The notes under the pieces: generated by a model
Told to the model about the DNA's origin: nothing
Seen by the model: only the letters and a program-made list of their open reading frames with translations
The model's database searches: none
Program-made: the position numbers and the translations under genes
In this document: piece after piece, positions 8,942 through 28,478 of the stretch
Position numbering within the stretch: position 1 is the stretch's first letter
Layout of the letters: every line of letters begins with the position of its first letter
Source of the DNA: a virus
Length of the DNA: 33,526 bases
IMG/VR virus record: IMGVR_UViG_3300035501_000483
Reading direction: 5' to 3' (one strand)

Positions 8942-9388
8942 ATGATTCAAATTGTAGAAGGTAATTTAGTTAATGCAACTGAAGATTTTATTTGTCATCA
9001 AGTTAATTGTAAAGGAAAAATGAATTCTGGAGTTGCAAGAGCAGTTAGAAACAAATGGCCGCAAGTATATAATGCTTTTCTTACTAAGTGCAATGAGCCA
9101 AATGTACTTGGAGATATTCAAGTAATTCCACTATATGGTGATAAATATGTTGTAAATATGTTCTGTCAACTTGATTATGGATATGATGGGAAGCGATATA
9201 CTTCTTATGATGCTTTTTGGGAAGCTCTAAATTGGATTAAAAAAGTAATTCCTAAAACAAAGTCTATTGCTTTTCCTTGCGGGATTGGATGCGGACGTGG
9301 TGGTGCTAATTGGCATGTAATTTATTCAATGATTGAAGAAGTCCTTAAAGATTATTGGGTAACATTTTATAAATATGAAGAGTCTTAA
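8942..9388 (+). CDS. Macro domain protein (ADP-ribose binding/processing).
   Basis: ICHQVNCKGKMNSGVARAV and IAFPCGIGCGRGGANW resemble the macro-domain motifs (NAAN..GGGV..AI; AFP.ISTG). RBS AAGGGAG. Confidence 0.5.
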   Translation: MIQIVEGNLVNATEDFICHQVNCKGKMNSGVARAVRNKWPQVYNAFLTKCNEPNVLGDIQVIPLYGDKYVVNMFCQLDYGYDGKRYTSYDAFWEALNWIKKVIPKTKSIAFPCGIGCGRGGANWHVIYSMIEEVLKDYWVTFYKYEES

Positions 9389-9390
9389 AG

Positions 9391-9426
9391 AAATGGTTCT
9401 CTTTTATAAGAGAACCATTTTATTTA
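9391..9426 (+). terminator. Rho-independent terminator.
   Basis: AAATGGTTCTCTT-ttat-AAGAGAACCATTT hairpin plus T-rich tail. Confidence 0.65.
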
Positions 9427-9447
9427 TATAAAAAATTATGATATAAT
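9419..9447 (+). promoter_or_regulatory. Promoter with extended -10 (TGATATAAT) and a weak -35.
   Basis: Same tgatataatatttatataa motif as the other promoters. Confidence 0.5.
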
Positions 9448-9484
9448 ATTTATATAAAGATAAGAGAAAAGGAATTGATAAATA

Positions 9485-10183
9485 ATGAGTGTATTTTGTT
9501 GCTCAGACTTACATGGTAATTTTGAATTATATGAGCAAATTTTAAAATTTTTAAAGCCAGAAGATAAAGTGTATTGTTTGGGTGATTGCGGTGATCGAGG
9601 TACTGATTCTTGGAAACTAATCAAAGCAGTTTTATCTAATTCACAATTTATTTATATTAAAGGTAATCACGAAGAAATGCTTATTGATGCAGGAAGAGAA
9701 TTTCTTAAAAGTGAAATGAATGACCTTTCTTGGGTATTACTTACTCAAAATGGTGGTTATGATACTTTTGAAGACTGGCTAAAAGAAGATCATAATGCGC
9801 AATGGCTTAATGTATTAGATAAATTGCCTATTTTTGCTAAATATGAAAATAATGAGGGAACTGTCATTTATATGACTCATGCGGGTTTCACTCCTACGCT
9901 CGCTGAACCAACGCCGCAAACTTTTGACGCACTTTGGAGTAGAGACCATTTTTATGATGGATGGGATGAAGAGAATTTTTCTAATGTAATTTGTGTACAT
10001 GGCCATACTCCTATCCAATATATGTATAAACAATTTGAAGTTCCAGAAGAGAAGTGGGAATATGGAGCATTACATTATTGCGGGACGCATAAGATAAATA
10101 TTGACCAAGGAACATATGTTTCTAATGTTGCTTGCCTTTTGGATTTAGATACTTTTGAAGAACATCTATTTCAAGCAGAATGA
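9485..10183 (+). CDS. PPP-family (lambda-phosphatase/PrpE-like) Ser/Thr or polynucleotide phosphatase.
   Basis: Motifs GDLHG-like CSDLHGN, GDCGDRG and GNHE. TGA stop. Confidence 0.7.
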   Translation: MSVFCCSDLHGNFELYEQILKFLKPEDKVYCLGDCGDRGTDSWKLIKAVLSNSQFIYIKGNHEEMLIDAGREFLKSEMNDLSWVLLTQNGGYDTFEDWLKEDHNAQWLNVLDKLPIFAKYENNEGTVIYMTHAGFTPTLAEPTPQTFDALWSRDHFYDGWDEENFSNVICVHGHTPIQYMYKQFEVPEEKWEYGALHYCGTHKINIDQGTYVSNVACLLDLDTFEEHLFQAE

Positions 10184-11569: not shown

Positions 11570-13009
11570 ATGAGTAGTATTATTACGCCCCATTTCATCA
11601 TTCCCGCCATTATTGTAATTGCGGTGATTGTAATTCTTGCTTCTGGATATTTGAAGGCACCGCCTGACCAAGCATATATTATTTCTGGGCTTGGGAAGAA
11701 ACCTAGGATTCTGGTCGGTCAAGCGGGAATTAAGATTCCTTTCTTTGAGCGAGTAGATAAGCTAGCTCTTGGTGCTGTTCAGATTGACGTAAAGACTTCT
11801 AGTGCGGTTCCTACTGCTGAGTATATCAATGTGCGAGTGGATTCCAATGTAAACGTACGGATTGGGCAGTCTACTGAAATGATTGAGCTTGCTGCTCAGA
11901 ATTTTCTGAACGTATCTCGTGGAGTGATTAATGATAAGGTACGTGACCTTCTGGAAGGTAATGTTCGTGAGATTGTGGGTAGCATGGCGCTGACTGACAT
12001 GGTTTCTGACCGTAAGGCATTTGCTGAAAAGGTTCAGGAAAATGCTGTTCCTGATTTGGCTCGTTTTGGTTTGGAACTGATTTCTTTTAATGTCCAGAAC
12101 TTCATTGATGATAATGGCGTAATTGAAAATCTTGGTATTGATAATGTGGAGCAAATTCGTAAGAAGGCTGCTATCGCAAAGTCTGATGCTCAGCGTGAAA
12201 TTGCTATTGCTGAAGCTAATAATGCTAAGACTTCTAATGATGCTAAGGTGCAGGCTGCAGAGGAAATTGCAAGTCGTAATAACGACCTGGCAATTAAGCA
12301 GGCTCAGTTGAAGCAGGAGGCTGATACTAAGCAGGCTCAGGCAGATGCAGCTAAGGAAATTGAGGCTGAGAACCAGCGTAAACTGCGTGATGTCGCTGCA
12401 ACTAATGCCAATATTGCTAAGGCTGAGCGTGAAGCTGAACTGAAGCAAAAGCAAATTGAACTTAAGGAATATGAGCTGGATGCTTTGGTGCGCAAGCAGG
12501 CTGATGCAGAAAAGTATGCTGCTGAGAAGCAGGCTGAGGCTGATTTGATTTCTCGCCAAAAGAAGGCAGAAGCAGAACGTTTCGAGCGTGAGCAGAAAGC
12601 TGAAGCTGATAAGTTTGCGGCTCTGCAAGAAGCTGAAGCTATGAAGGCTAAGGCTGATGCTACTAAGTATGCGGCCTTGGCTGAAGCTGAAGGTATTGCA
12701 GCCAAGGGTTCTGCAGAAGCTGAGGCCATTGATAAGAAGGCAGAAGCCCAGAAAAAGATGGGTGAAGCATCTGTCCTGGAAATGTACTTTGACGCGCTCC
12801 CTGAAGTTGTTAAGCAAGCTGCCATCCCTCTTGCTAATGTGGATAGAATTACTATGTACGGGTCTGATAATTCCACTAAGATGGTTGGAGACGTGATGCA
12901 GTCGGCTGACCAGATTATGGCTGCAGTATCCAATGCTACGGGCATTGATATGAAGACTGTGATTGCTAGTTACCTTGGTAGTAAGGGTGCTCAGAATACT
13001 GAAGAGTAA
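11570..13009 (+). CDS. Flotillin-like SPFH/band-7 membrane protein with a long EA-repeat coiled coil.
   Basis: N-terminal TM helix (IIPAIIVIAVIVILA), SPFH-like body, then an approximately 200-aa A/E/K-rich coiled coil. RBS AAAGGAG. GC-richer than surrounding genes. Confidence 0.6.
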   Translation: MSSIITPHFIIPAIIVIAVIVILASGYLKAPPDQAYIISGLGKKPRILVGQAGIKIPFFERVDKLALGAVQIDVKTSSAVPTAEYINVRVDSNVNVRIGQSTEMIELAAQNFLNVSRGVINDKVRDLLEGNVREIVGSMALTDMVSDRKAFAEKVQENAVPDLARFGLELISFNVQNFIDDNGVIENLGIDNVEQIRKKAAIAKSDAQREIAIAEANNAKTSNDAKVQAAEEIASRNNDLAIKQAQLKQEADTKQAQADAAKEIEAENQRKLRDVAATNANIAKAEREAELKQKQIELKEYELDALVRKQADAEKYAAEKQAEADLISRQKKAEAERFEREQKAEADKFAALQEAEAMKAKADATKYAALAEAEGIAAKGSAEAEAIDKKAEAQKKMGEASVLEMYFDALPEVVKQAAIPLANVDRITMYGSDNSTKMVGDVMQSADQIMAAVSNATGIDMKTVIASYLGSKGAQNTEE

Positions 13010-15897: not shown

Positions 15898-16302
15898 TTG
15901 AAATATAGTTCAAGTAATAAACCATTACAATGTATGATGACAAATAGTACTTGTTATAAAGGTACTACAACAATGACGATTAAAGGTGTTTTATGGCATA
16001 GTACTGGAGCAAATAATCCCAATTTAAAAAGATATGTTTAGCCCAGTTCTAATGACCCCAATTATAAAACACTAATCAGCAAGATTGGTAAAAATACCAA
16101 TAATAGTGATTGGAATCATATTGAACGTGAAGCTGGTTTGAATTGCTGGATTGGTAAGCTGGCTGATGGAACTGTGGCCACTGTATAGACAATGCCTTGG
16201 AATTATAAACCGTGGGGTTGTGGTAAAGGTTCTAAAGGGTCTTGTAACAACGGGTGGATTCAATTTGAGATTGACTCTTCAAACAGTCTCCGTATAGAGT
16301 AA
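15898..16302 (+). CDS. N-acetylmuramoyl-L-alanine amidase (Amidase_2/T7-lysozyme fold) endolysin, exon 1. Two in-frame TAGs are read as sense.
   Basis: GVLWHSTGANNP compared with T7 lysozyme IFVHCSATKP; DGTV; NGWIQFEI compared with NSIGVCLV. RBS GAAGGGAG. As drawn, ends at TAA 16300; the true 5' splice site lies a few codons upstream. Confidence 0.55.
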
Positions 16303-16667
16303 TCTGTATGTTAAAATATGCATTGAATTGCTGGGAACTCCTAAAGCTATATCTACCACAACAGAAAGATGAAATAAGCTTAAATGTGAAGGTTACGAAA
16401 GTAGAAAAAAAGATATAGATGGCACAAGGTTAAATCCTAAATGTTTGAATAATGGACAATCAGCAGCGAAGTCTCGAATAGAGAAACGTTCAACGACTAT
16501 CCTGTAAAGGAGTAGATTATATTGTCAGATATAATCGAAGTGGTGCACTCCATTTATTAATGGATGAAGATATAGTCTGTACTTTATTGAAAAATAAAGA
16601 GATTAAGAATAATCAAGTATAAAGAAATTTGACAAATTTCATTTAAAAAAATACTTTAACAAAATAG
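16303..16667 (+). ncRNA. Putative group I self-splicing intron in the endolysin gene. Boundaries are approximate, plus or minus 20 nt.
   Basis: About 365 nt with stops in all frames, separating two same-frame halves of one Amidase_2 domain. Contains the group I J8/7-P7 signature AAGATATAGTC (16568-16578) with a complementary GACTATC at 16495-16501. A CTTTATT-GAAA-AATAAAG tetraloop hairpin (16582-16599) sits immediately 3', in a P9-like position. Confidence 0.5.
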
Positions 16668-17634: not shown

Positions 17635-18168
17635 ATGGCAACATCAAAAACTGAAAACCTTGGATTAAATGTTTTCTCAACTGGAGATAAAATTTTAGCA
17701 AGTGAAATAAATACAAATTTTTAGACTTTGGAGGATAATATAGATATGAGTGCTAAAATAGTGGGGACTGCGCATGATGGAGGTAGTGCAACATCATTTA
17801 CAATTACTTTACCTACTACAGATTATGATTATTTGACAGTGAAGATAGAATGTCCTATACCTTGGATATTTAGTAATTATGGGTTAACGTCACCATCAAC
17901 ATCTCCTTATCGTATTTATACTATTAAAAAACCTTCTTCTAGTTACACTTTTTATTTTAAAACTCTAAATGAGACATATTAGTTGAGAAATAGTTCCTCA
18001 AGTAGTTATGCTTATTATTACTATTCTGTTTTAGACGCTTTAAAAAATCAAACAGGCGTGTTAGACGGATCTACCCTTACTCTTTCAAATTTTTATAGTA
18101 AAATATATGGGATGTCAACTGAATACCCTTACTACGCTATCGAAGTAGTCCAATATAAATATAGCTAA
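17635..18168 (+). CDS. Tail-fibre/receptor-binding-like protein, paralogue 2. Two in-frame TAGs are read as sense.
   Basis: ATG 17635 with RBS GAGGAAA. ENLGLNVFSTGDKILASEINTNF-Q-TLEDN is the shared N-terminal motif. One frame continues across TAG at 17722 and 17980 to TAA. The C-terminus YAIEVVQYKYS is shared with the next gene. Confidence 0.55.
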
Positions 18169-18199: not shown

Positions 18200-18723
18200 A
18201 TGTCCGAATTAAATGTTTTTTCTAGTGGACAAAAAATCACAGCGCAAGAAATAAATGAAAATTTTTCAATTTTACAAGGAGGAATTAGTGTGAATGCAAA
18301 GATCGTTGGAACGGTACACGGGGGGGGGCTCCTACTAGCAGTAACTCATCACTTTCTGTAACATTACCCACTACAGATTATGATTTTTTAACTATTAGAT
18401 TAAGATATCCTGATATAGCAAAATACACTGCCCCCCCCAATACTAATTATGGCTCCTATGCTATAGGTAGTTTTGTTTCAAATAGTGATATCTGTACTAT
18501 AATAAAACCTTCTTCTTCATATACTTTTTATTTAAAAATTCCTTCATACGATAGTGGATATACGTTAAAAATTTATAATAATATATTAATAGGAAACGGA
18601 GAAAATGCTACTGGGACACTCGATAATGATACTTTAACAATATCAAACCTTTATAGAATTGGAGTATATTATTAGGACCCTTTGACTTACACTATCGAAG
18701 TAATCCAATACAAATATTCTTAA
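18200..18723 (+). CDS. Tail-fibre/receptor-binding-like protein, paralogue 3. It requires a -1 shift at a G9 tract (18320-18328) and contains an in-frame TAG.
   Basis: RBS AAGGAGG. The N-terminus MSELNVFSSGQKITAQEINENF and C-terminus YTIEVIQYKYS are paralogous to the 17635 gene. A zero-frame stop occurs 10 codons after the G9 run. The -1 frame carries the conserved remainder, including a C8 tract at about 18431-18438. Confidence 0.45.
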
Positions 18724-25957: not shown

Positions 25958-26149
25958 ATGAAAAGAAAAGAGTTAAAGAATTTGGCCTAGCGTATTGCAA
26001 AGCTTGAAATGATTGTTCAAACTAGCAACGATACAAAGGCTATATCCAAGGCTCAAGAAGACATTATGGAATTGTCTGGCCATGTTCATGCAATTGAAGA
26101 TATGATTCTTGTTGATGAAATGGTTCAAGAAATTTTAGAAAAAAATTCT
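25958..26149 (+). CDS. Small hypothetical protein (62 aa) with one in-frame TAG read as sense.
   Basis: RBS AAGGAAGAG. The frame is intact across TAG (25988-25990) to TGA. Embedded in a duplicated promoter unit. Confidence 0.35.
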
Positions 26150-26177
26150 TGACTTAAAAAGAATTTTTTGATATAAT
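26149..26177 (+). promoter_or_regulatory. Sigma-A-type promoter (TTGACT, 17 bp, TGATATAAT).
   Basis: Near-identical copy of the 25897 promoter. Confidence 0.55.
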
Positions 26178-26238
26178 ATTTACATAAGCTAAAAAGCAAA
26201 TAAATAATTATTAAATATAAAAAAGGAGAAATTTTACA

Positions 26239-26508
26239 ATGGCTATGAAGCAAAACAGTAAGCTCGTACTTAATTATCTGAAGGAAGTTAATGGTTCTAA
26301 TGTGACTGCAGCAGATGTTGCTGAGGCTCTGGGTCTTGAGAAGCGTTCTGTTGATGGTATTTTCACCTCTGCTATTCAGCGTAAGGGTCTGGGTGTGCGT
26401 ACTCCCGCTGAGATTGAGCTGGAGGATGGTACACATAAGGCAGTGAAATTCTTGTCTCTGACTCCCGCAGGTCTGGCTTTTGATCCCGATGCGGCTGATG
26501 CTGAGTAA
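26239..26508 (+). CDS. Small GC-rich hypothetical protein (89 aa).
   Basis: RBS AAAGGAG. Codon usage is distinct from AT-rich neighbours. Confidence 0.5.
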   Translation: MAMKQNSKLVLNYLKEVNGSNVTAADVAEALGLEKRSVDGIFTSAIQRKGLGVRTPAEIELEDGTHKAVKFLSLTPAGLAFDPDAADAE

Positions 26509-26525
26509 TTTTTAACATAAATTTA

Positions 26526-26560
26526 AAAGGGAGTAGAATAATTTAATTCTACTCCCTTTT
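26526..26560 (+). terminator. Rho-independent terminator.
   Basis: AAGGGAGTAGAAT-aattt-AATTCTACTCCCTT hairpin plus T-run. Confidence 0.75.
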
Positions 26561-26579
26561 ACCTTCTAAGGAGAAAAAA

Positions 26580-27536
26580 TTGATTGGAATAATTTGTCTG
26601 TTGATTGGACTTATAATAGGCGCGATTGTTGTATATACAATTCAACAGCCAAAGGTGAAAACAACTTAGAAACTTGATACAGAGATAATAAAATAGAATC
26701 AAGCTTTATAGGTTGAATTAGCGTCTTTGAGTACTAAAAAAGAAGAAGTCCAATCAAGCATTTAGTCTTTAAAAGAACAAGCAAATACTGCTGCTGAAGA
26801 ATTTAATAAAAATGCAAAAGAACTTGCAGAAGAAAAATTTAAAAAACAAATTGCTTCTATGGATAAAGCTTGCGAAATTCATTAGAGAGAATGCAATTCT
26901 CAATATTTGGAAATTTTGGAAGATTTAGCCAGCAGCACCCAAAAGTAGATTCAATCTTATAAAGATTCAGTTATAAATTATGAAACTACTATAAAATAGC
27001 TTGAATCAAAAATTAAAGACCAAGAAGCTATTATGTCTGCGGCAGTCGCTGTAAATATACGAGCCGCAGAAATGGATAATAAACAAGATTTTTACCGTTT
27101 AAATCTTTCTTCTGAAGATATAAGTGAAATTAAACGATTAAGAGAAGTAACTCCTTATTTAAGAAATAGTGAACCTCTTAATAAAGTAATCTGGAAAACT
27201 TATTATGAAAAAGCTTATACTGATTTAATTGGACGAGTTGTTGGCTCTGGAGTCCATACTGGTATTTATAAGATAACCAATATTGAAAATAAGATGTGTT
27301 ATGTCGGATAGAGTGTGGATATCGCCGAACGGTGGAAGCAGCACATTAAGCGTGGTATTGGCGCAGAAGCCCCAACTCGCAATAAGTTGTATCCAGCTAT
27401 GCTTGCTGTTGGAGTTGAAAATTTTACTTTTGAAATTATTGAAGAATGTGATCGCTCTTTATTAAATGAAAGAGAGCAATACTGGACTAGCTTTTTAAAA
27501 GCCAAAGAGTTCGGATATAGTATGAGAAGTGGTTAA
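26580..27536 (+). CDS. GIY-YIG homing-endonuclease-like protein with an N-terminal TM helix and coiled coil. Eight in-frame TAGs are read as sense.
   Basis: TTG start 7 nt after AAGGAG. A single frame is maintained over 318 codons only if TAG is sense. C-terminal GIYKITNIENKMCYVG-Q-SVDIAERWKQH is a GIY-YIG motif. Confidence 0.55.
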
Positions 27537-27538
27537 AA

Positions 27539-28465
27539 ATGCCGAAATTAAAAGATTTAACAGGATAGAGTTTTGGAAGATTAGTAGTATTATATCAAGC
27601 TGATTCTAAAAATAAACGAGTTTATTGGCATTGCCGGTGTTCTTGTGGAAGAGAAATTGATATACGAGCTGATAGTTTAACTAGCGGTAATACTGTTAGT
27701 TGCGGTTGCTATCTTAAAGAGACAGCCTCAAGATTAGGGAAAAAATTAAAATTAGATTTAACAGGACAAAGGTTTAATAGATTAATAGTATTAGAAGAAG
27801 ATTTTTCAAAAAAACGAGTTGCTTGGAAGTGTTAGTGTGATTGTGGGAATACAACGATAGTTACATCTGATGCTTTAAGAGGCGGTACAACTTAGAGTTG
27901 TGGATGCCTTTAGAGAGAAAGAGCTATTGAGGCAAATAAAAAAGAAATTCATACTCCACGAATAAATATTATCAATAAACGTTTTGGTAAATTAACTGTT
28001 ATTGAAATCTATAAATATCAAGATAATGATATGTTTTATAAATGTAGGTGTGATTGTGGTAATATAGCAATAGTTAGTGGCACACATCTTAGAAGTGGTC
28101 ATACTTTATCATGTGGTTGTATAAAAAGTTCTTATTACGCTTCTTTAATAGGTAATATTTTAGAAGAATTAAACATCCCATATGAGAAAGAACGTACTTT
28201 TAAAACCTGCATAAATCCAAAAACTAATAATAAATTAAGATTTGATTTCTATATAGATAATAAAATTTTATTAGAATATGATGGTATTTAGCATTTCAAA
28301 GATTCACCAATATTAAAAGAATATTAGTATAGAGATAATATAAAAAATGAATGGTGTAAGCAAGAAGGAATTCCTTTAATAAGAATTTCTTATAAAGAAA
28401 ATAAAAATATCAATATAGATTATATAAAAAGTATTCTTAAAGAATACGGATATAGTATAAAATAA
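27539..28465 (+). CDS. Homing-endonuclease-like protein with a triple W-x-C-x-C-x-CG...SCGC zinc-ribbon repeat and a C-terminal Vsr/PD-(D/E)xK-like domain. Six in-frame TAGs are read as sense.
   Basis: ATG 2 nt after the upstream stop. Three repeats: WHCRCSCG...SCGC, WKC(TAG)CDCG...SCGC and YKCRCDCG...SCGC. One TAG occupies the position held by Arg in the two sister repeats. Confidence 0.5.
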
Positions 28466-28478
28466 AGGAGAATACTAT

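What the first reader, a model, noticed from the sequence alone, without database searches (positions are those of the whole stretch)
26509..28478. Two tandem homing-endonuclease genes (one GIY-YIG, one Cys-repeat plus Vsr-like), heavily amber-recoded, inserted between a terminator and the ThyX-like cassette.
The first HEG unusually fuses an N-terminal TM helix and coiled coil to a C-terminal GIY-YIG nuclease domain.
The second has three W-x-C-x-C-x-CG...SCGC zinc modules and a Vsr-like nuclease tail.
TAG density is 2-2.5 per 100 codons, the highest in the window. This implies the HEGs are only made when amber suppression is on.
The two genes are separated by 2 nt and share no promoter of their own, so they are probably freestanding homing cassettes riding a late transcript.
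Basis: partly seen in the sequence, partly recalled or inferred. Interest (0 to 1): 0.6.

Follow-up and report, generated by a model that had tools for sequence, protein, structure and literature searches.

The report
Amber-locked membrane nuclease plus inserted homing gene
Only the second of the two genes is a mobile homing-endonuclease insertion. The first is a fixed, conserved gene of a large family of gut phages that encodes a membrane-anchored DNA-cutting enzyme, and its message is studded with amber codons, so it can probably be made only after the phage has switched the cell's genetic code.

Summary
Two adjacent + strand ORFs (26580-27536 and 27539-28465) carry 8 and 6 in-frame TAGs, lie 2 nt apart and sit just after a strong hairpin. 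TAG reads as glutamine.

**Gene 2** (three Cys modules plus a PD-(D/E)XK-type nuclease) is a real mobile insertion.
- Relatives 84-99% identical in DNA (L006, L016, L012) lack exactly this block.
- The block is bounded by a 21-nt imperfect repeat made of the last codons of gene 1.
- It carries a 38-nt foreign patch that rewrites the C-terminus of gene 1.
- It has lower GC than its surroundings (27% against 33%).

**Gene 1** is not a freestanding homing gene.
- It sits in the same slot in 80 of 80 related phage loci that were fetched through its neighbour gene.
- It is under purifying selection.
- It has no DNA-targeting domain. Its architecture is an N-terminal membrane helix, a helix of about 160 residues, a small conserved middle domain and an I-TevI-like GIY-YIG domain with intact catalytic residues.

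Across the family, gene 1 uses TAG for 24.5% of its Gln-type codons, against 0-8.5% in each of its replication-module neighbours.

I read gene 1 as an amber-gated, membrane-tethered nuclease. It resembles bacterial SNIPE in layout but is not a member of that family. Its function is inferred, not shown.

The parts
26524..26561 (+). Strong hairpin (16-bp stem, A-tract and U-tract arms) that closes the highly conserved 89-aa gene (26239-26508). The ribosome-binding site of gene 1 begins 8 nt after it.
   Evidence: free energy -23.6 kcal/mol, z = -5.3. Conserved in L006.
26580..27536 (+). Gene 1: a conserved core gene of 318 aa with a TTG start and 8 in-frame TAGs (read as Gln). It encodes a predicted membrane-tethered GIY-YIG nuclease.
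26583..26642 (+). Predicted N-terminal transmembrane helix of gene 1 (residues 2-21, IGIICLLIGLIIGAIVVYTI), followed by the basic stretch PKVK.
   Evidence: mean Kyte-Doolittle hydropathy over 19 residues is 2.9; the next best elsewhere is 0.95. The feature is conserved across the family.
26652..27080 (+). Long helix or coiled coil of gene 1 (about residues 25-167). Its sequence varies, its architecture is conserved, and it holds 7 of the 8 TAGs.
   Evidence: AlphaFold model of the 61%-identical ortholog P0004 shows one helix over residues 3-163, pLDDT up to 98. See also the alignment.
27081..27257 (+). Small, highly conserved middle domain of gene 1 (FYRL..EI..LR..P.LR..EPLNKVIWK.YYEK..TDLIGRV). 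It matches no known family.
   Evidence: one short strand and two helices, pLDDT about 97. No Pfam family, including DUF4041, matched in 79 members.
27258..27524 (+). GIY-YIG catalytic domain of gene 1, I-TevI-like. Y230, Y241, R251, H255 and E299 are invariant. The Asn90 position of I-TevI is an invariant Ser.
   Evidence: Foldseek against 1mk0/1ln0 gives E = 4e-6 and target TM-score 0.8.
27486..27523 (+). Foreign 'class B' patch. It holds 11 of the 28 substitutions against L006, packed into 38 nt, and it rewrites the end of gene 1 from ..QNCLKAKEYGYSIK* to ..TSFLKAKEFGYSMRSG*.
   Evidence: Fisher test p = 2.7e-11. The same C-terminal type is found in L010, which also carries the homing gene, and in L027 and L053.
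27503..27523 (+). Left copy of the 21-nt imperfect direct repeat (17 of 21 matches to the empty-site sequence).
27524..28437 (+). Sequence present only in the filled allele (914 nt; 935 nt counting one repeat copy). GC is 27.7%, against 33.4% for the whole window.
27539..28465 (+). Gene 2: a freestanding homing-endonuclease-type gene of 308 aa with 6 in-frame TAGs (read as Gln).
27551..27712 (+). Cys module 1 of gene 2 (residues 5-58). It is a presumed Zn-binding, DNA-recognition unit.
27752..27910 (+). Cys module 2 of gene 2 (residues 72-124).
   Evidence: It is 70% identical in DNA to module 1.
27965..28123 (+). Cys module 3 of gene 2 (residues 143-195).
28127..28423 (+). Nuclease domain of gene 2, with the motif D236-F..E246-x-D248-G-x-Q-H252..Q263-x-R-D266..K269. 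It is PD-(D/E)XK-like and resembles DUF2726.
   Evidence: The residues are invariant or nearly invariant in 22 homologs.
28438..28458 (+). Right copy of the 21-nt repeat (20 of 21 matches to the empty site). Together with 28459-28465 it is the original end of gene 1 (KEYGYSIK*), which now supplies the last codons and the stop codon of gene 2.

Best explanation
The block holds two different things.

**(1) Gene 1.** It is a vertically inherited core gene of a large family of roughly 115-200-kb phages found in gut and rumen metagenomes; the host is probably Firmicutes.
- Its product is anchored in the cytoplasmic membrane by an N-terminal helix.
- The product holds an I-TevI-type GIY-YIG nuclease domain, plus a small conserved middle domain, at the end of a helix or coiled coil of about 140-160 residues.
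- The nuclease domain probably descends from a homing endonuclease, but it is now a domesticated phage function.
- In amber-recoded members the gene is loaded with TAG (Gln) codons while the replication genes around it avoid TAG. The first TAG usually falls just after the membrane helix. Without the phage's suppressor tRNA, only a stub would be made.
- I infer that the nuclease is made only after the code switch, that is, late. I also infer that it acts on DNA at the inner face of the membrane, either on incoming competitor DNA (as bacterial SNIPE does) or on host DNA.

**(2) Gene 2.** It is a freestanding homing-endonuclease gene with tandem Cys modules for DNA recognition and a PD-(D/E)XK-type nuclease.
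- It entered this phage lineage recently, landing inside the last codons of gene 1.
- It brought a diverged replacement end for gene 1 with it, and it reads out through the old end and stop codon of gene 1.
- Its start lies 2 nt after the new stop of gene 1, so its translation is probably coupled to gene 1. It is gated by its own TAG codons as well.

**Shown:** coordinates, TAG = Gln, synteny, conservation, fold, insertion anatomy.

**Inferred:** membrane location, nuclease activity, late timing, the target of either enzyme.
For: **Gene 1 is fixed.**
- It lies in the same slot (89-aa gene, gene 1, 91-aa gene/thymidylate synthase, 117-aa gene, YorF) in L001, L003 and L008.
- It is in that slot in 80 IMG/VR loci found through gene 1.
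- It is present in 80 of 80 loci found through the neighbouring 89-aa gene, with a median gap of 84 nt.
- The family has 795 clusters (at 50% identity) with E <= 1e-30.
- dN/dS against L012 is 0.17 overall and 0.11 in the C-terminal half.

**Gene 1 architecture.**
- AlphaFold model with pLDDT 93: helix 3-163, a middle domain, then the GIY-YIG fold.
- Match to the I-TevI catalytic domain with E = 4e-6 and target TM-score 0.8.
- Catalytic Tyr, Tyr, Arg, His and Glu are invariant in 79 diverse members.

**TAG reads as Gln.** Three columns show it most clearly: 17 TAG against 50 Gln, 12 against 49 Gln, and 5 against 52 Gln. Overall, Gln makes up 24% of the residues opposite TAG, against a 4.9% background.

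**TAG is concentrated in gene 1.**
- Gene 1: 325 TAG in 20,423 codons, which is 24.5% of Gln-type codons.
- gyrA: 2 in 40,124 codons. Ligase: 5 in 30,116. p117: 0 in 6,511. YorF: 10 in 18,695.
- Odds ratio 21.6.
- TAG occurs in 103 different alignment columns.
- 57 of 67 distinct orthologs carry TAG, with the median first TAG at codon 29.
- The distant phage Phass-1 has a homolog with 9 TAGs.
- In the window, the other TAG-bearing genes include the endolysin and tail-fibre-like ORFs.

**Gene 2 is an insertion.**
- L006, L016 (98-99% identical over 12.9 kb) and L012 (84-87%) lack it, all with the same junction.
- The junction has a 21-nt repeat and a clustered 38-nt patch.
- The class B end of gene 1 is shared with L010, which carries a 63%-identical gene 2 homolog at the same site.
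- GC is 27% against 33%.
- Gene 2-like genes sit at varied sites in other loci, and at this site in 0 of 80 loci fetched through the neighbour gene.
Against: - No experiment bears on activity, location or timing.
- Ten of 67 distinct orthologs have no TAG at all; these come from standard-code relatives. The gene therefore works without amber gating, and TAG richness may only mark membership of a late or low-expression class rather than a dedicated lock.
- The TAG counts are not phylogenetically independent, so the Fisher p-value is overstated.
- Gene 1 sits in the replication and nucleotide-metabolism module, not among late genes.
- The middle domain matches no known DNA-binding family.
- No suppressor tRNA lies in the window or near gene 1 in 59 related loci.
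- For gene 2, the nuclease fold rests on sub-threshold Pfam hits and PHROG labels. No donor closer than 63-67% identity was found.
- Class B ends of gene 1 also occur without a downstream homing gene (L053, L027). The patch is therefore not proof of target-site immunity.
Confidence: 0.8

Rival explanations
1. One reading: both genes are freestanding homing endonuclease genes, forming one 1.9-kb mobile cassette.
For: The gene 1 nuclease domain scores above the trusted cutoff of TIGR01453 'group I intron endonuclease' and matches PHROG homing-endonuclease families. Extra GIY-YIG genes do occur sporadically elsewhere in related loci (second gene 1 hits). Borges et al. labelled a preferentially recoded gene in Agate phages as a group I intron endonuclease.
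Against: Gene 1 is present in 80 of 80 neighbour-anchored loci. Its synteny is strict and dN/dS is 0.17. It has no DNA-targeting domain, and its membrane anchor and long helix are conserved. The empty-site relatives lack only gene 2.
Confidence: 0.04
2. Gene 2 lies in a group I intron that interrupts the 3' end of gene 1. Splicing would restore the ..KEYGYSIK* end.
For: Removing one repeat copy plus the insert would restore a consensus-length gene 1. The same window holds a true group I intron at 16267-16599. Thymidylate-synthase-type genes next door are interrupted in relatives.
Against: No intron model matches 26100-28900 even at E <= 1. Gene 1 has its own in-frame stop 2 nt before the ATG of gene 2. 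Gene 2 runs to the old stop of gene 1. This leaves no non-coding sequence for an intron core.
Confidence: 0.03
3. Gene 2 is ancestral at this site and was lost by precise deletion in L006, L016 and L012.
For: L010, a 67%-identical phage, has a homolog at the same site, diverged about as much as its flanks. A 21-nt repeat could mediate deletion.
Against: The genomes without the homing gene carry the majority class A end of gene 1, as do about 45 other distinct orthologs. The window carries a 38-nt class B patch inside an otherwise 98%-identical gene. Deletion between the repeats would leave a chimeric end, not a clean class A end. The insert is low in GC.
Confidence: 0.08
4. The TAG richness of gene 1 is a passive by-product of weak expression or relaxed codon selection, not a timing lock.
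For: Standard-code relatives run the gene with no TAG. The TAG share is even across domains (26-28% outside the 25-codon membrane-helix bin, where counts are small), as expected from drift among Gln codons. TAG positions turn over quickly (103 columns).
Against: TAG occupies invariant catalytic-domain Gln positions. The contrast with neighbours under the same mutation pressure is about 20-fold or more. The property persists in the distant Phass-1 lineage.
Confidence: 0.25
5. Gene 1 degrades host DNA for nucleotide salvage, a role like T4 EndoII, rather than guarding the membrane against incoming DNA.
For: It lies next to thymidylate synthase and DHFR. T4 EndoII is also a GIY-YIG enzyme (weak structural hit 2wsh). 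From my own knowledge, T4 denA lies beside the nrd genes.
Against: A conserved membrane anchor and a helix about 20 nm long are not needed for bulk chromosome degradation. The gene is present whether the phage has ThyA+DHFR or the ThyX-like gene.
Confidence: 0.25

Closest known systems
I-TevI catalytic domain and the GIY-YIG homing endonucleases (TIGR01453, PF01541)
   Same: The gene 1 C-terminal domain has the same fold (PDB 1mk0/1ln0, E = 4e-6, rmsd 2.0-2.5 A over about 95 residues, 30% identity). The same catalytic Tyr, Tyr, Arg, His and Glu are present.
   Different: In gene 1 the domain is C-terminal rather than N-terminal. There is no linker, Zn finger or helix-turn-helix DNA-binding module. 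A membrane anchor, a long helix and a new middle domain are present. The gene is fixed and syntenic rather than sporadic. The Asn90 equivalent is an invariant Ser.
SNIPE (bacterial membrane-bound nuclease that cuts phage DNA during injection; bioRxiv 10.1101/2025.11.03.685801), probably the system named PD-Lambda-1
   Same: Both have a single N-terminal transmembrane helix, an elongated helical region, a small central domain and a C-terminal GIY-YIG nuclease facing the cytoplasm. In both, the nuclease is the most conserved part and the N-terminal region is the most variable. Both show weak FtsB/DivIC-like or ZapG-like N-terminal similarities.
   Different: Gene 1 is encoded by phages as a core gene, not by bacteria in defence contexts. 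No DUF4041 was detected in 79 members, and no PADLOC PD-Lambda-1 hit was found. Gene 1 is amber-gated. Its activity and target are untested.
Freestanding homing endonuclease genes of T-even phages (Seg, Mob; 'intronless homing')
   Same: Gene 2 is inserted at the edge of a conserved gene and is absent from near-identical relatives. It is flanked by a tract of diverged sequence, consistent with co-conversion or target immunity. It is translationally close-packed with the upstream gene.
   Different: The domain make-up differs: tandem Cys modules plus a PD-(D/E)XK-like nuclease instead of GIY-YIG or HNH. The gene reads out through the old end of the host gene. It carries amber codons, so it should work only in code-15 phages.
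Preferential stop-codon recoding of late and lysis genes, and of a 'group I intron endonuclease' in Agate phages (Borges et al., bioRxiv 10.1101/2021.08.26.457843)
   Different: That case is TGA recoded as Trp and was read as an intron-borne homing gene. This case is TAG recoded as Gln in a fixed membrane-anchored gene. I could not test whether the two gene families are the same.
EDxHD / Vsr-like homing endonuclease I-Bth0305I
   Same: Both are phage homing nucleases of the PD-(D/E)XK / Vsr-type superfamily.
   Different: A profile of 22 gene 2 homologs found no I-Bth0305I or Vsr chain in the PDB. The best match was T7 endonuclease I at E = 0.2. The motif here is D..E-x-D-G-x-Q-H..R-D..K.

Membership tests
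GIY-YIG homing endonuclease (gene 1) | GIY-YIG catalytic domain with conserved Tyr, Tyr, Arg, His and Glu | tested here: met
GIY-YIG homing endonuclease (gene 1) | Attached sequence-specific DNA-binding domain (Zn finger, NUMOD or helix-turn-helix) | tested here: not met
   GIY-YIG (all 79 members) and a weak related SegE_GIY-YIG match (23 members) are the only DNA-related Pfam families found; no DNA-binding family matched. The rest of the protein is a transmembrane helix, one long helix and a 60-residue domain with no match to any family.
GIY-YIG homing endonuclease (gene 1) | Sporadic presence or absence among related genomes | tested here: not met
   Present in 80 of 80 neighbour-anchored loci. 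Strict synteny.
SNIPE / PD-Lambda-1 (gene 1) | N-terminal membrane anchor with the nuclease in the cytoplasm | tested here: inconclusive
   There is a single hydrophobic helix at residues 2-21 followed by basic residues, and it is conserved. This is a prediction only; no topology tool or experiment was available.
SNIPE / PD-Lambda-1 (gene 1) | Central DUF4041 domain | tested here: not met
   No DUF4041 or T5orf172 hit at E <= 0.1 in 79 members or at E <= 1 for the window protein. No PD-Lambda model matched in PADLOC at E <= 1.
SNIPE / PD-Lambda-1 (gene 1) | C-terminal GIY-YIG nuclease | tested here: met
SNIPE / PD-Lambda-1 (gene 1) | Cleaves DNA as it enters through the membrane | not testable with these tools
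   This needs injection or cleavage assays.
Freestanding homing endonuclease gene (gene 2) | Present or absent between otherwise near-identical genomes at a precise site | tested here: met
   L006, L007, L016 and L012 are empty. The window and L009 are filled.
Freestanding homing endonuclease gene (gene 2) | Nuclease domain with conserved catalytic residues | tested here: met
   D236, E246, H252, D266 and K269 are invariant and D248 nearly invariant in 22 homologs. PHROG 9084 and 7140 homing/intron nuclease families match with E = 9e-20 and 1e-14.
Freestanding homing endonuclease gene (gene 2) | Flanking sequence changed next to the insertion (co-conversion or target immunity) | tested here: met
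   11 substitutions in 38 nt against 17 in 1321 nt. The patch is of the type seen in L010.
Freestanding homing endonuclease gene (gene 2) | The enzyme cuts the allele that lacks the gene | not testable with these tools
   This needs in vitro cleavage of the L006-type site.
Vsr / EDxHD nuclease fold (gene 2) | Detectable similarity to Vsr, DUF559 or I-Bth0305I | tested here: inconclusive
   DUF2726 gives E = 4e-4, below its cutoff, and PDDEXK_3 gives E = 0.03. No PDB hit was found.
Group I intron-encoded endonuclease (gene 2) | ORF embedded in a group I intron | tested here: not met
   No Rfam hit at the gathering threshold or at E <= 1. No non-coding room is left.
Genetic code 15 phage (TAG = Gln) | In-frame TAG aligned with Gln in sense-coded orthologs | tested here: met
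   For gene 2, all six TAGs fall on columns where Gln is the consensus or frequent.
Genetic code 15 phage (TAG = Gln) | Suppressor tRNA(CUA) in the genome | tested here: inconclusive
   None in this 33.5-kb window, and the rest of the genome was not available. Phass-1 has two.

The most novel reading that the evidence does not exclude
Gene 1 defines a phage-encoded counterpart of bacterial SNIPE. In this reading it is a nuclease held at the inner face of the membrane that destroys DNA entering the already infected cell (superinfection exclusion) or membrane-proximal host DNA. It would be kept silent by an amber-codon lock until the phage's own suppressor tRNA has switched the code. A homing gene has parasitised its 3' end and shares the same lock.
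Probability: 0.25. Interest if true: 0.8.

Novelty: new variant of a known kind. Interest (0 to 1): 0.6.

Why it matters
Three points follow if this reading is right.

1. A gene that annotation pipelines label 'group I intron endonuclease', or split into fragments, would be a conserved hallmark gene of a large and widespread family of gut and rumen phages. GenBank's Phass-1 record shows the splitting: only a 435-nt piece is annotated. The family comprises 795 clusters at 50% identity.
2. It gives a clean, family-wide test case for the idea that stop-codon recoding times translation. A single amber-rich gene sits among amber-free replication genes.
3. It suggests that the membrane-tethered nuclease design recently shown for bacterial defence (SNIPE) is also used by phages.

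The gene 2 insertion is ordinary biology, but it is a well-resolved example. Filled and empty alleles, the likely target region and a co-transferred flank are all available, so cleavage assays can be designed directly. The amber codons imply that this homing gene can spread only among code-15 phages.

Tried and rejected
- **First structure model.** The model of the gene 1 family from a shallow 27-sequence alignment was poor in the C-terminal half (pLDDT below 50). I replaced it with a 79-sequence alignment.
- The afdb50 fold library was not available.
- **Circular evidence for TAG = Gln.** I first took database proteins with Gln at TAG positions as independent evidence. Loci flagged 'translates_to_query: no' showed these had been called with TAG = Gln, which makes that evidence circular. 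I redid the test on DNA, counting only CAA/CAG as Gln.
- **Suppressor tRNAs next to gene 1.** This is seen only in Phass-1 and in none of 59 other loci.
- **Bacterial (defence-island) homologs.** The GTDB scan found only phage-sized contigs binned into metagenome-assembled genomes.
- **A close donor of gene 2.** None was found in IMG/VR above about 54% identity.
- **Names for the families.** The source databases gave none.
- **The 270-nt insert of L016.** Rfam gave no hit.
- **Nucleotide search of GenBank phages.** Only trivial hits were found.
- **Readings rejected.** The intron reading, the ancestral-with-loss reading and the two-homing-gene reading are rejected for the reasons given under the rival explanations.
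Full report
**What is there**

The + strand carries two tightly packed ORFs if TAG is read through.
- Gene 1 runs 26580-27536. It has a TTG start, 318 codons, 8 TAGs and a TAA stop.
- Gene 2 runs 27539-28465. It has an ATG start, 308 codons, 6 TAGs and a TAA stop.
- The two are 2 nt apart.

Just upstream, a 16-bp hairpin at 26524-26561 (free energy -23.6 kcal/mol, z = -5.3) closes an 89-aa gene. TAG densities of 2.5 and 1.9 per 100 codons are the highest among window ORFs of 100 codons or more. No tRNA gene lies in the window.

**Domains**

Gene 1 has a C-terminal GIY-YIG domain.
- Pfam matches with E = 1.3e-10. TIGR01453 scores 70.5 bits against a cutoff of 56. The I-TevI catalytic domain is the best solved relative.
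- In front of it lie a single hydrophobic helix (residues 2-21) and a long helical region.

Gene 2 has three Cys modules of the form W/Y-x-C-x-C-x-CG...SCGC and a C-terminal nuclease domain.
- PHROG 374 matches with E = 6.7e-60 in three stretches. The homing/intron nuclease PHROGs 9084 and 7140 match the tail.
- Pfam gives only sub-threshold PD-(D/E)XK-clan hits (DUF2726, PDDEXK_3).
- A profile of 22 homologs finds no solved structure. 'Vsr-like' therefore remains a weakly supported label. 'PD-(D/E)XK-type, DUF2726-like' is safer.

**TAG reads as glutamine**

I aligned 67 distinct gene 1 orthologs taken from DNA, scoring TAG separately from CAA/CAG.
- Three conserved columns hold 17 TAG with 50 Gln, 12 TAG with 49 Gln, and 5 TAG with 52 Gln.
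- Overall, Gln makes up 24% of the sense residues opposite TAG, against a 4.9% background.
- The TAG at codon 244 of the window gene sits in the invariant YVG-Q position.
- All six TAGs of gene 2 fall on columns where Gln is the consensus or frequent, including the nearly invariant D-G-x-Q-H and Q-x-R-D positions.

One caution applies. Many database proteins had themselves been called with TAG = Gln (flagged 'translates_to_query: no'). Only the DNA-level test is independent.

**Gene 1 is a fixed core gene, not a mobile one**

- Full-length homologs are abundant. The first search listed more than 100 at 52-61% identity. The representative search found 795 clusters at 50% identity with E <= 1e-30.
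- In large phage contigs the order is gyrB, RNase H, gyrA, NAD-ligase, a small ORF, the 89-aa gene, gene 1, an optional 91-aa gene, then thymidylate synthase (ThyA+DHFR or the ThyX-like gene), the 117-aa winged-helix gene, YorF, AAA_24, YorH and DnaB.
- All 80 IMG/VR loci found with gene 1 keep this slot.
- To remove the bias of searching with gene 1, I fetched 80 loci through the neighbouring 89-aa gene. All 80 have gene 1 directly downstream, with a median gap of 84 nt.
- dN/dS against L012 is 0.17 overall, 0.21 in the helix and 0.11 in the C-terminal half.
- In GTDB genomes the family occurs only on phage-sized contigs (120-185 kb) binned into gut Firmicutes metagenome-assembled genomes.
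- The only GenBank phage with the family is Phass-1, of the 'code 15 clade'. Its record annotates only a 435-nt fragment. Read through, the Phass-1 protein has the same architecture and 9 TAGs.

**Architecture of gene 1**

I built an AlphaFold model of the 61%-identical ortholog P0004 from a 79-sequence alignment. The mean pLDDT is 93.
- It shows one helix over residues 3-163.
- A small middle domain follows: a short strand and helices at 174-184 and 194-216.
- The GIY-YIG fold occupies residues 224-301.
- Foldseek finds the I-TevI catalytic domain (E = 4e-6, target TM-score 0.8) and, weakly, UvrC and T4 EndoII.
- Among predicted viral structures, two proteins align over most or all of their length (309 and 228 aligned columns). 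The rest match only the nuclease.
- The catalytic Tyr, Tyr, Arg, His and Glu are invariant in 79 diverse members.
- No member hits DUF4041 or T5orf172. Some N-termini weakly resemble ZapG or DivIC/FtsB.

**Amber codons are concentrated in gene 1 across the family**

The table counts distinct sequences from the related loci.

| Gene | TAG codons | Total codons | TAG share of Gln-type codons |
|---|---|---|---|
| Gene 1 | 325 | 20,423 | 24.5% |
| Gene 2-like genes | 33 | 2,513 | 31% |
| gyrA | 2 | 40,124 | 0.2% |
| Ligase | 5 | 30,116 | 0.7% |
| p117 | 0 | 6,511 | 0% |
| YorF | 10 | 18,695 | 2.6% |

- The odds ratio for gene 1 against its neighbours is 21.6. The p-value is inflated because the sequences share ancestry.
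- TAG occurs in 103 different alignment columns, so many independent changes are involved.
- 57 of 67 distinct orthologs carry TAG. The median is 5 and the maximum 12.
- The TAG share is even across the coiled-coil, middle and nuclease domains (26-28%; the 25-codon membrane-helix bin has too few Gln-type codons to judge), and the first TAG falls at a median of codon 29, just after the membrane helix.
- Ten orthologs from standard-code relatives have no TAG.
- In the window, the other TAG-bearing genes include the endolysin (interrupted by an intron), tail-fibre-like ORFs and small membrane proteins. This matches the published pattern that recoded codons mark late genes.

**Gene 2 is a recent insertion into the end of gene 1**

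- L016 is 98-99% identical to the window over 12.9 kb. L006/L007 are 97-98% identical and L012 is 84-87% identical. All lack gene 2, with the same junction: window ..27523 joins 28438...
- L009 is a 100% identical filled copy from another sample.
- The two alignment blocks overlap by 21 nt of the empty allele. The insert is therefore bounded by an imperfect direct repeat. The left copy (27503-27523) matches 17 of 21 and the right copy (28438-28458) matches 20 of 21.
- Of the 28 substitutions in the 1359-nt left block, 11 fall in the last 38 nt (p = 2.7e-11).
- That patch changes the end of gene 1 from the family's majority form ..YWQ-x-YF-x-AK-x-FGYSIK* to ..YWTSFLKAKEFGYSMRSG*.
- The same minority form ends gene 1 in L010, a 67%-identical phage with a 63%-identical gene 2 homolog at the same site. 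L010 also has a second, one-module relative upstream of gene 1. The minority form is also found in L027 and L053.
- Gene 2 itself ends ..SIL-KEYGYSIK*. It runs out through the old end and stop codon of gene 1, whereas its closest homologs end ..NLLNK*.
- The insert has 27.7% GC, against 33.4% for the window.
- Gene 2-like genes sit at other places in related phages: inside the ThyX-like gene, between gyrA and the ligase gene, and upstream of gene 1. They occur at this site in none of the 80 neighbour-anchored loci.
- No intron model matches the region.

**How it most likely works**

*Shown:* the points above.

*Inferred for gene 2:*
- A homing enzyme made by a donor phage cut a class A end of gene 1.
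- Repair copied the homing gene together with the donor's class B end. This gives the co-conversion tract on the left.
- The right end rejoined at or near the break, inside the old end of gene 1.
- The class B sequence may protect the filled allele from being cut again. However, class B ends also exist without the homing gene, so this is not proven.
- The 2-nt spacing suggests translational coupling to gene 1.

*Inferred for gene 1:*
- The product is a membrane-tethered endonuclease that becomes translatable only once amber suppression is active.
- I give roughly equal weight (about 0.25 each) to two roles. One is cutting incoming DNA at the membrane. The other is degrading host DNA beside the nucleotide-metabolism genes. 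The remainder is spread over other roles.

**Comparison with what is known**

Gene 1 shares its catalytic domain with I-TevI-type homing enzymes. It fails two defining features of that family: it has no DNA-targeting domain and its distribution is not sporadic.

Gene 1 has the layout of SNIPE: a transmembrane helix, an elongated helix, a central domain, a GIY-YIG nuclease and a variable N-terminus. It fails the DUF4041 test and gives no PADLOC PD-Lambda hit. It also differs in being encoded by phages.

Borges et al. reported a preferentially TGA-recoded 'group I intron endonuclease' in an early region of Agate phages. That is a precedent for the recoding pattern, and possibly for the same mislabelling, but I could not test the link.

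Gene 2 is a new member of the broad class of freestanding homing genes.

**Verdict**

The homing insertion is ordinary but cleanly resolved. The more interesting object is the fixed, amber-rich, membrane-anchored nuclease that it landed in.

Noticed in passing
window 16267-16599 (+), with ORF 15898-16302: A group I intron (Rfam RF00028, 63.2 bits, E = 6e-14) interrupts an endolysin gene. Exon 1 matches endolysin PHROG 15001 and carries 2 in-frame TAGs.
   Followed up: partly
window 6160-8565 (+): An RNA-ligase-like ORF contains an intein (Hint and intein-splicing domains, about residues 185-550) with a LAGLIDADG homing endonuclease. It has no TAG codons, unlike gene 2.
   Followed up: no
L016 7564-7833 and L006 from 2013, equivalent to window 29119/29120: Close relatives that lack gene 2 carry a 270-nt insertion inside the ThyX-like gene, which the window lacks. 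Rfam gives no match at E <= 0.1. It could be a small ORF-less intron of an undescribed type.
   Followed up: partly
window 26149-26508 (+): The 89-aa gene is far more conserved than its neighbours: 82-100% amino-acid identity in the 80 loci fetched through it, where gyrA and the ligase are about 50%.
- Its GC is 47%, against 33% for the window.
- It uses CAG almost exclusively for Gln.
- It has a near-consensus promoter (TTGACT-17-TATAAT with an upstream TG) and its own terminator.
- It gives weak winged-helix and Z-alpha-like hits only.

It is probably a very highly expressed small DNA-binding protein.
   Followed up: partly
window 28744-29574 (+): The 'ThyX-like' gene has no Pfam hit at E <= 0.01 and matches only PHROG 6721, of unknown function. 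In relatives the same slot holds ThyA plus DHFR. This fits a flavin-dependent thymidylate synthase-type role but does not prove it.
   Followed up: partly
window 43-2070 and 11570-13009 (+): The phage encodes a major-vault-protein-like protein (MVP shoulder domain, E = 1.5e-22; Vault_3) and a flotillin/SPFH protein (Band_7, E = 6e-20; Flot). Both are TAG-free. These are unusual genes for a phage.
   Followed up: no
L092 (Phass-1, OQ749652.1) 8443-10010: GenBank annotates only a 435-nt fragment of the gene 1 homolog. Read through, the ORF from the upstream stop spans 334 codons with 9 TAGs; the protein from its first Met is about 327 aa. Two tRNA(CUA) genes lie about 400 nt downstream. This arrangement was not seen in 59 other loci.
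   Followed up: yes
window 3951-4304 and 4304-4648 (+): Two adjacent paralogous small membrane proteins, each with in-frame TAGs. They are possibly holin-like.
   Followed up: no
window 17635-18168 and 18259-18723 (+): Two TAG-bearing paralogous ORFs with the same C-terminal ending (..IEV-V/I-QYKYS). They are tail-fibre-like and have no family match.
   Followed up: no
L010 4452-5009: A second, shorter relative of gene 2 (one Cys module plus the nuclease, 185 aa, no TAG) sits between the 91-aa-type gene and gene 1 in the same phage that has a gene 2 homolog downstream. L048 and L055 also have one upstream of gene 1. The flanks of gene 1 seem to be a preferred landing zone.
   Followed up: partly
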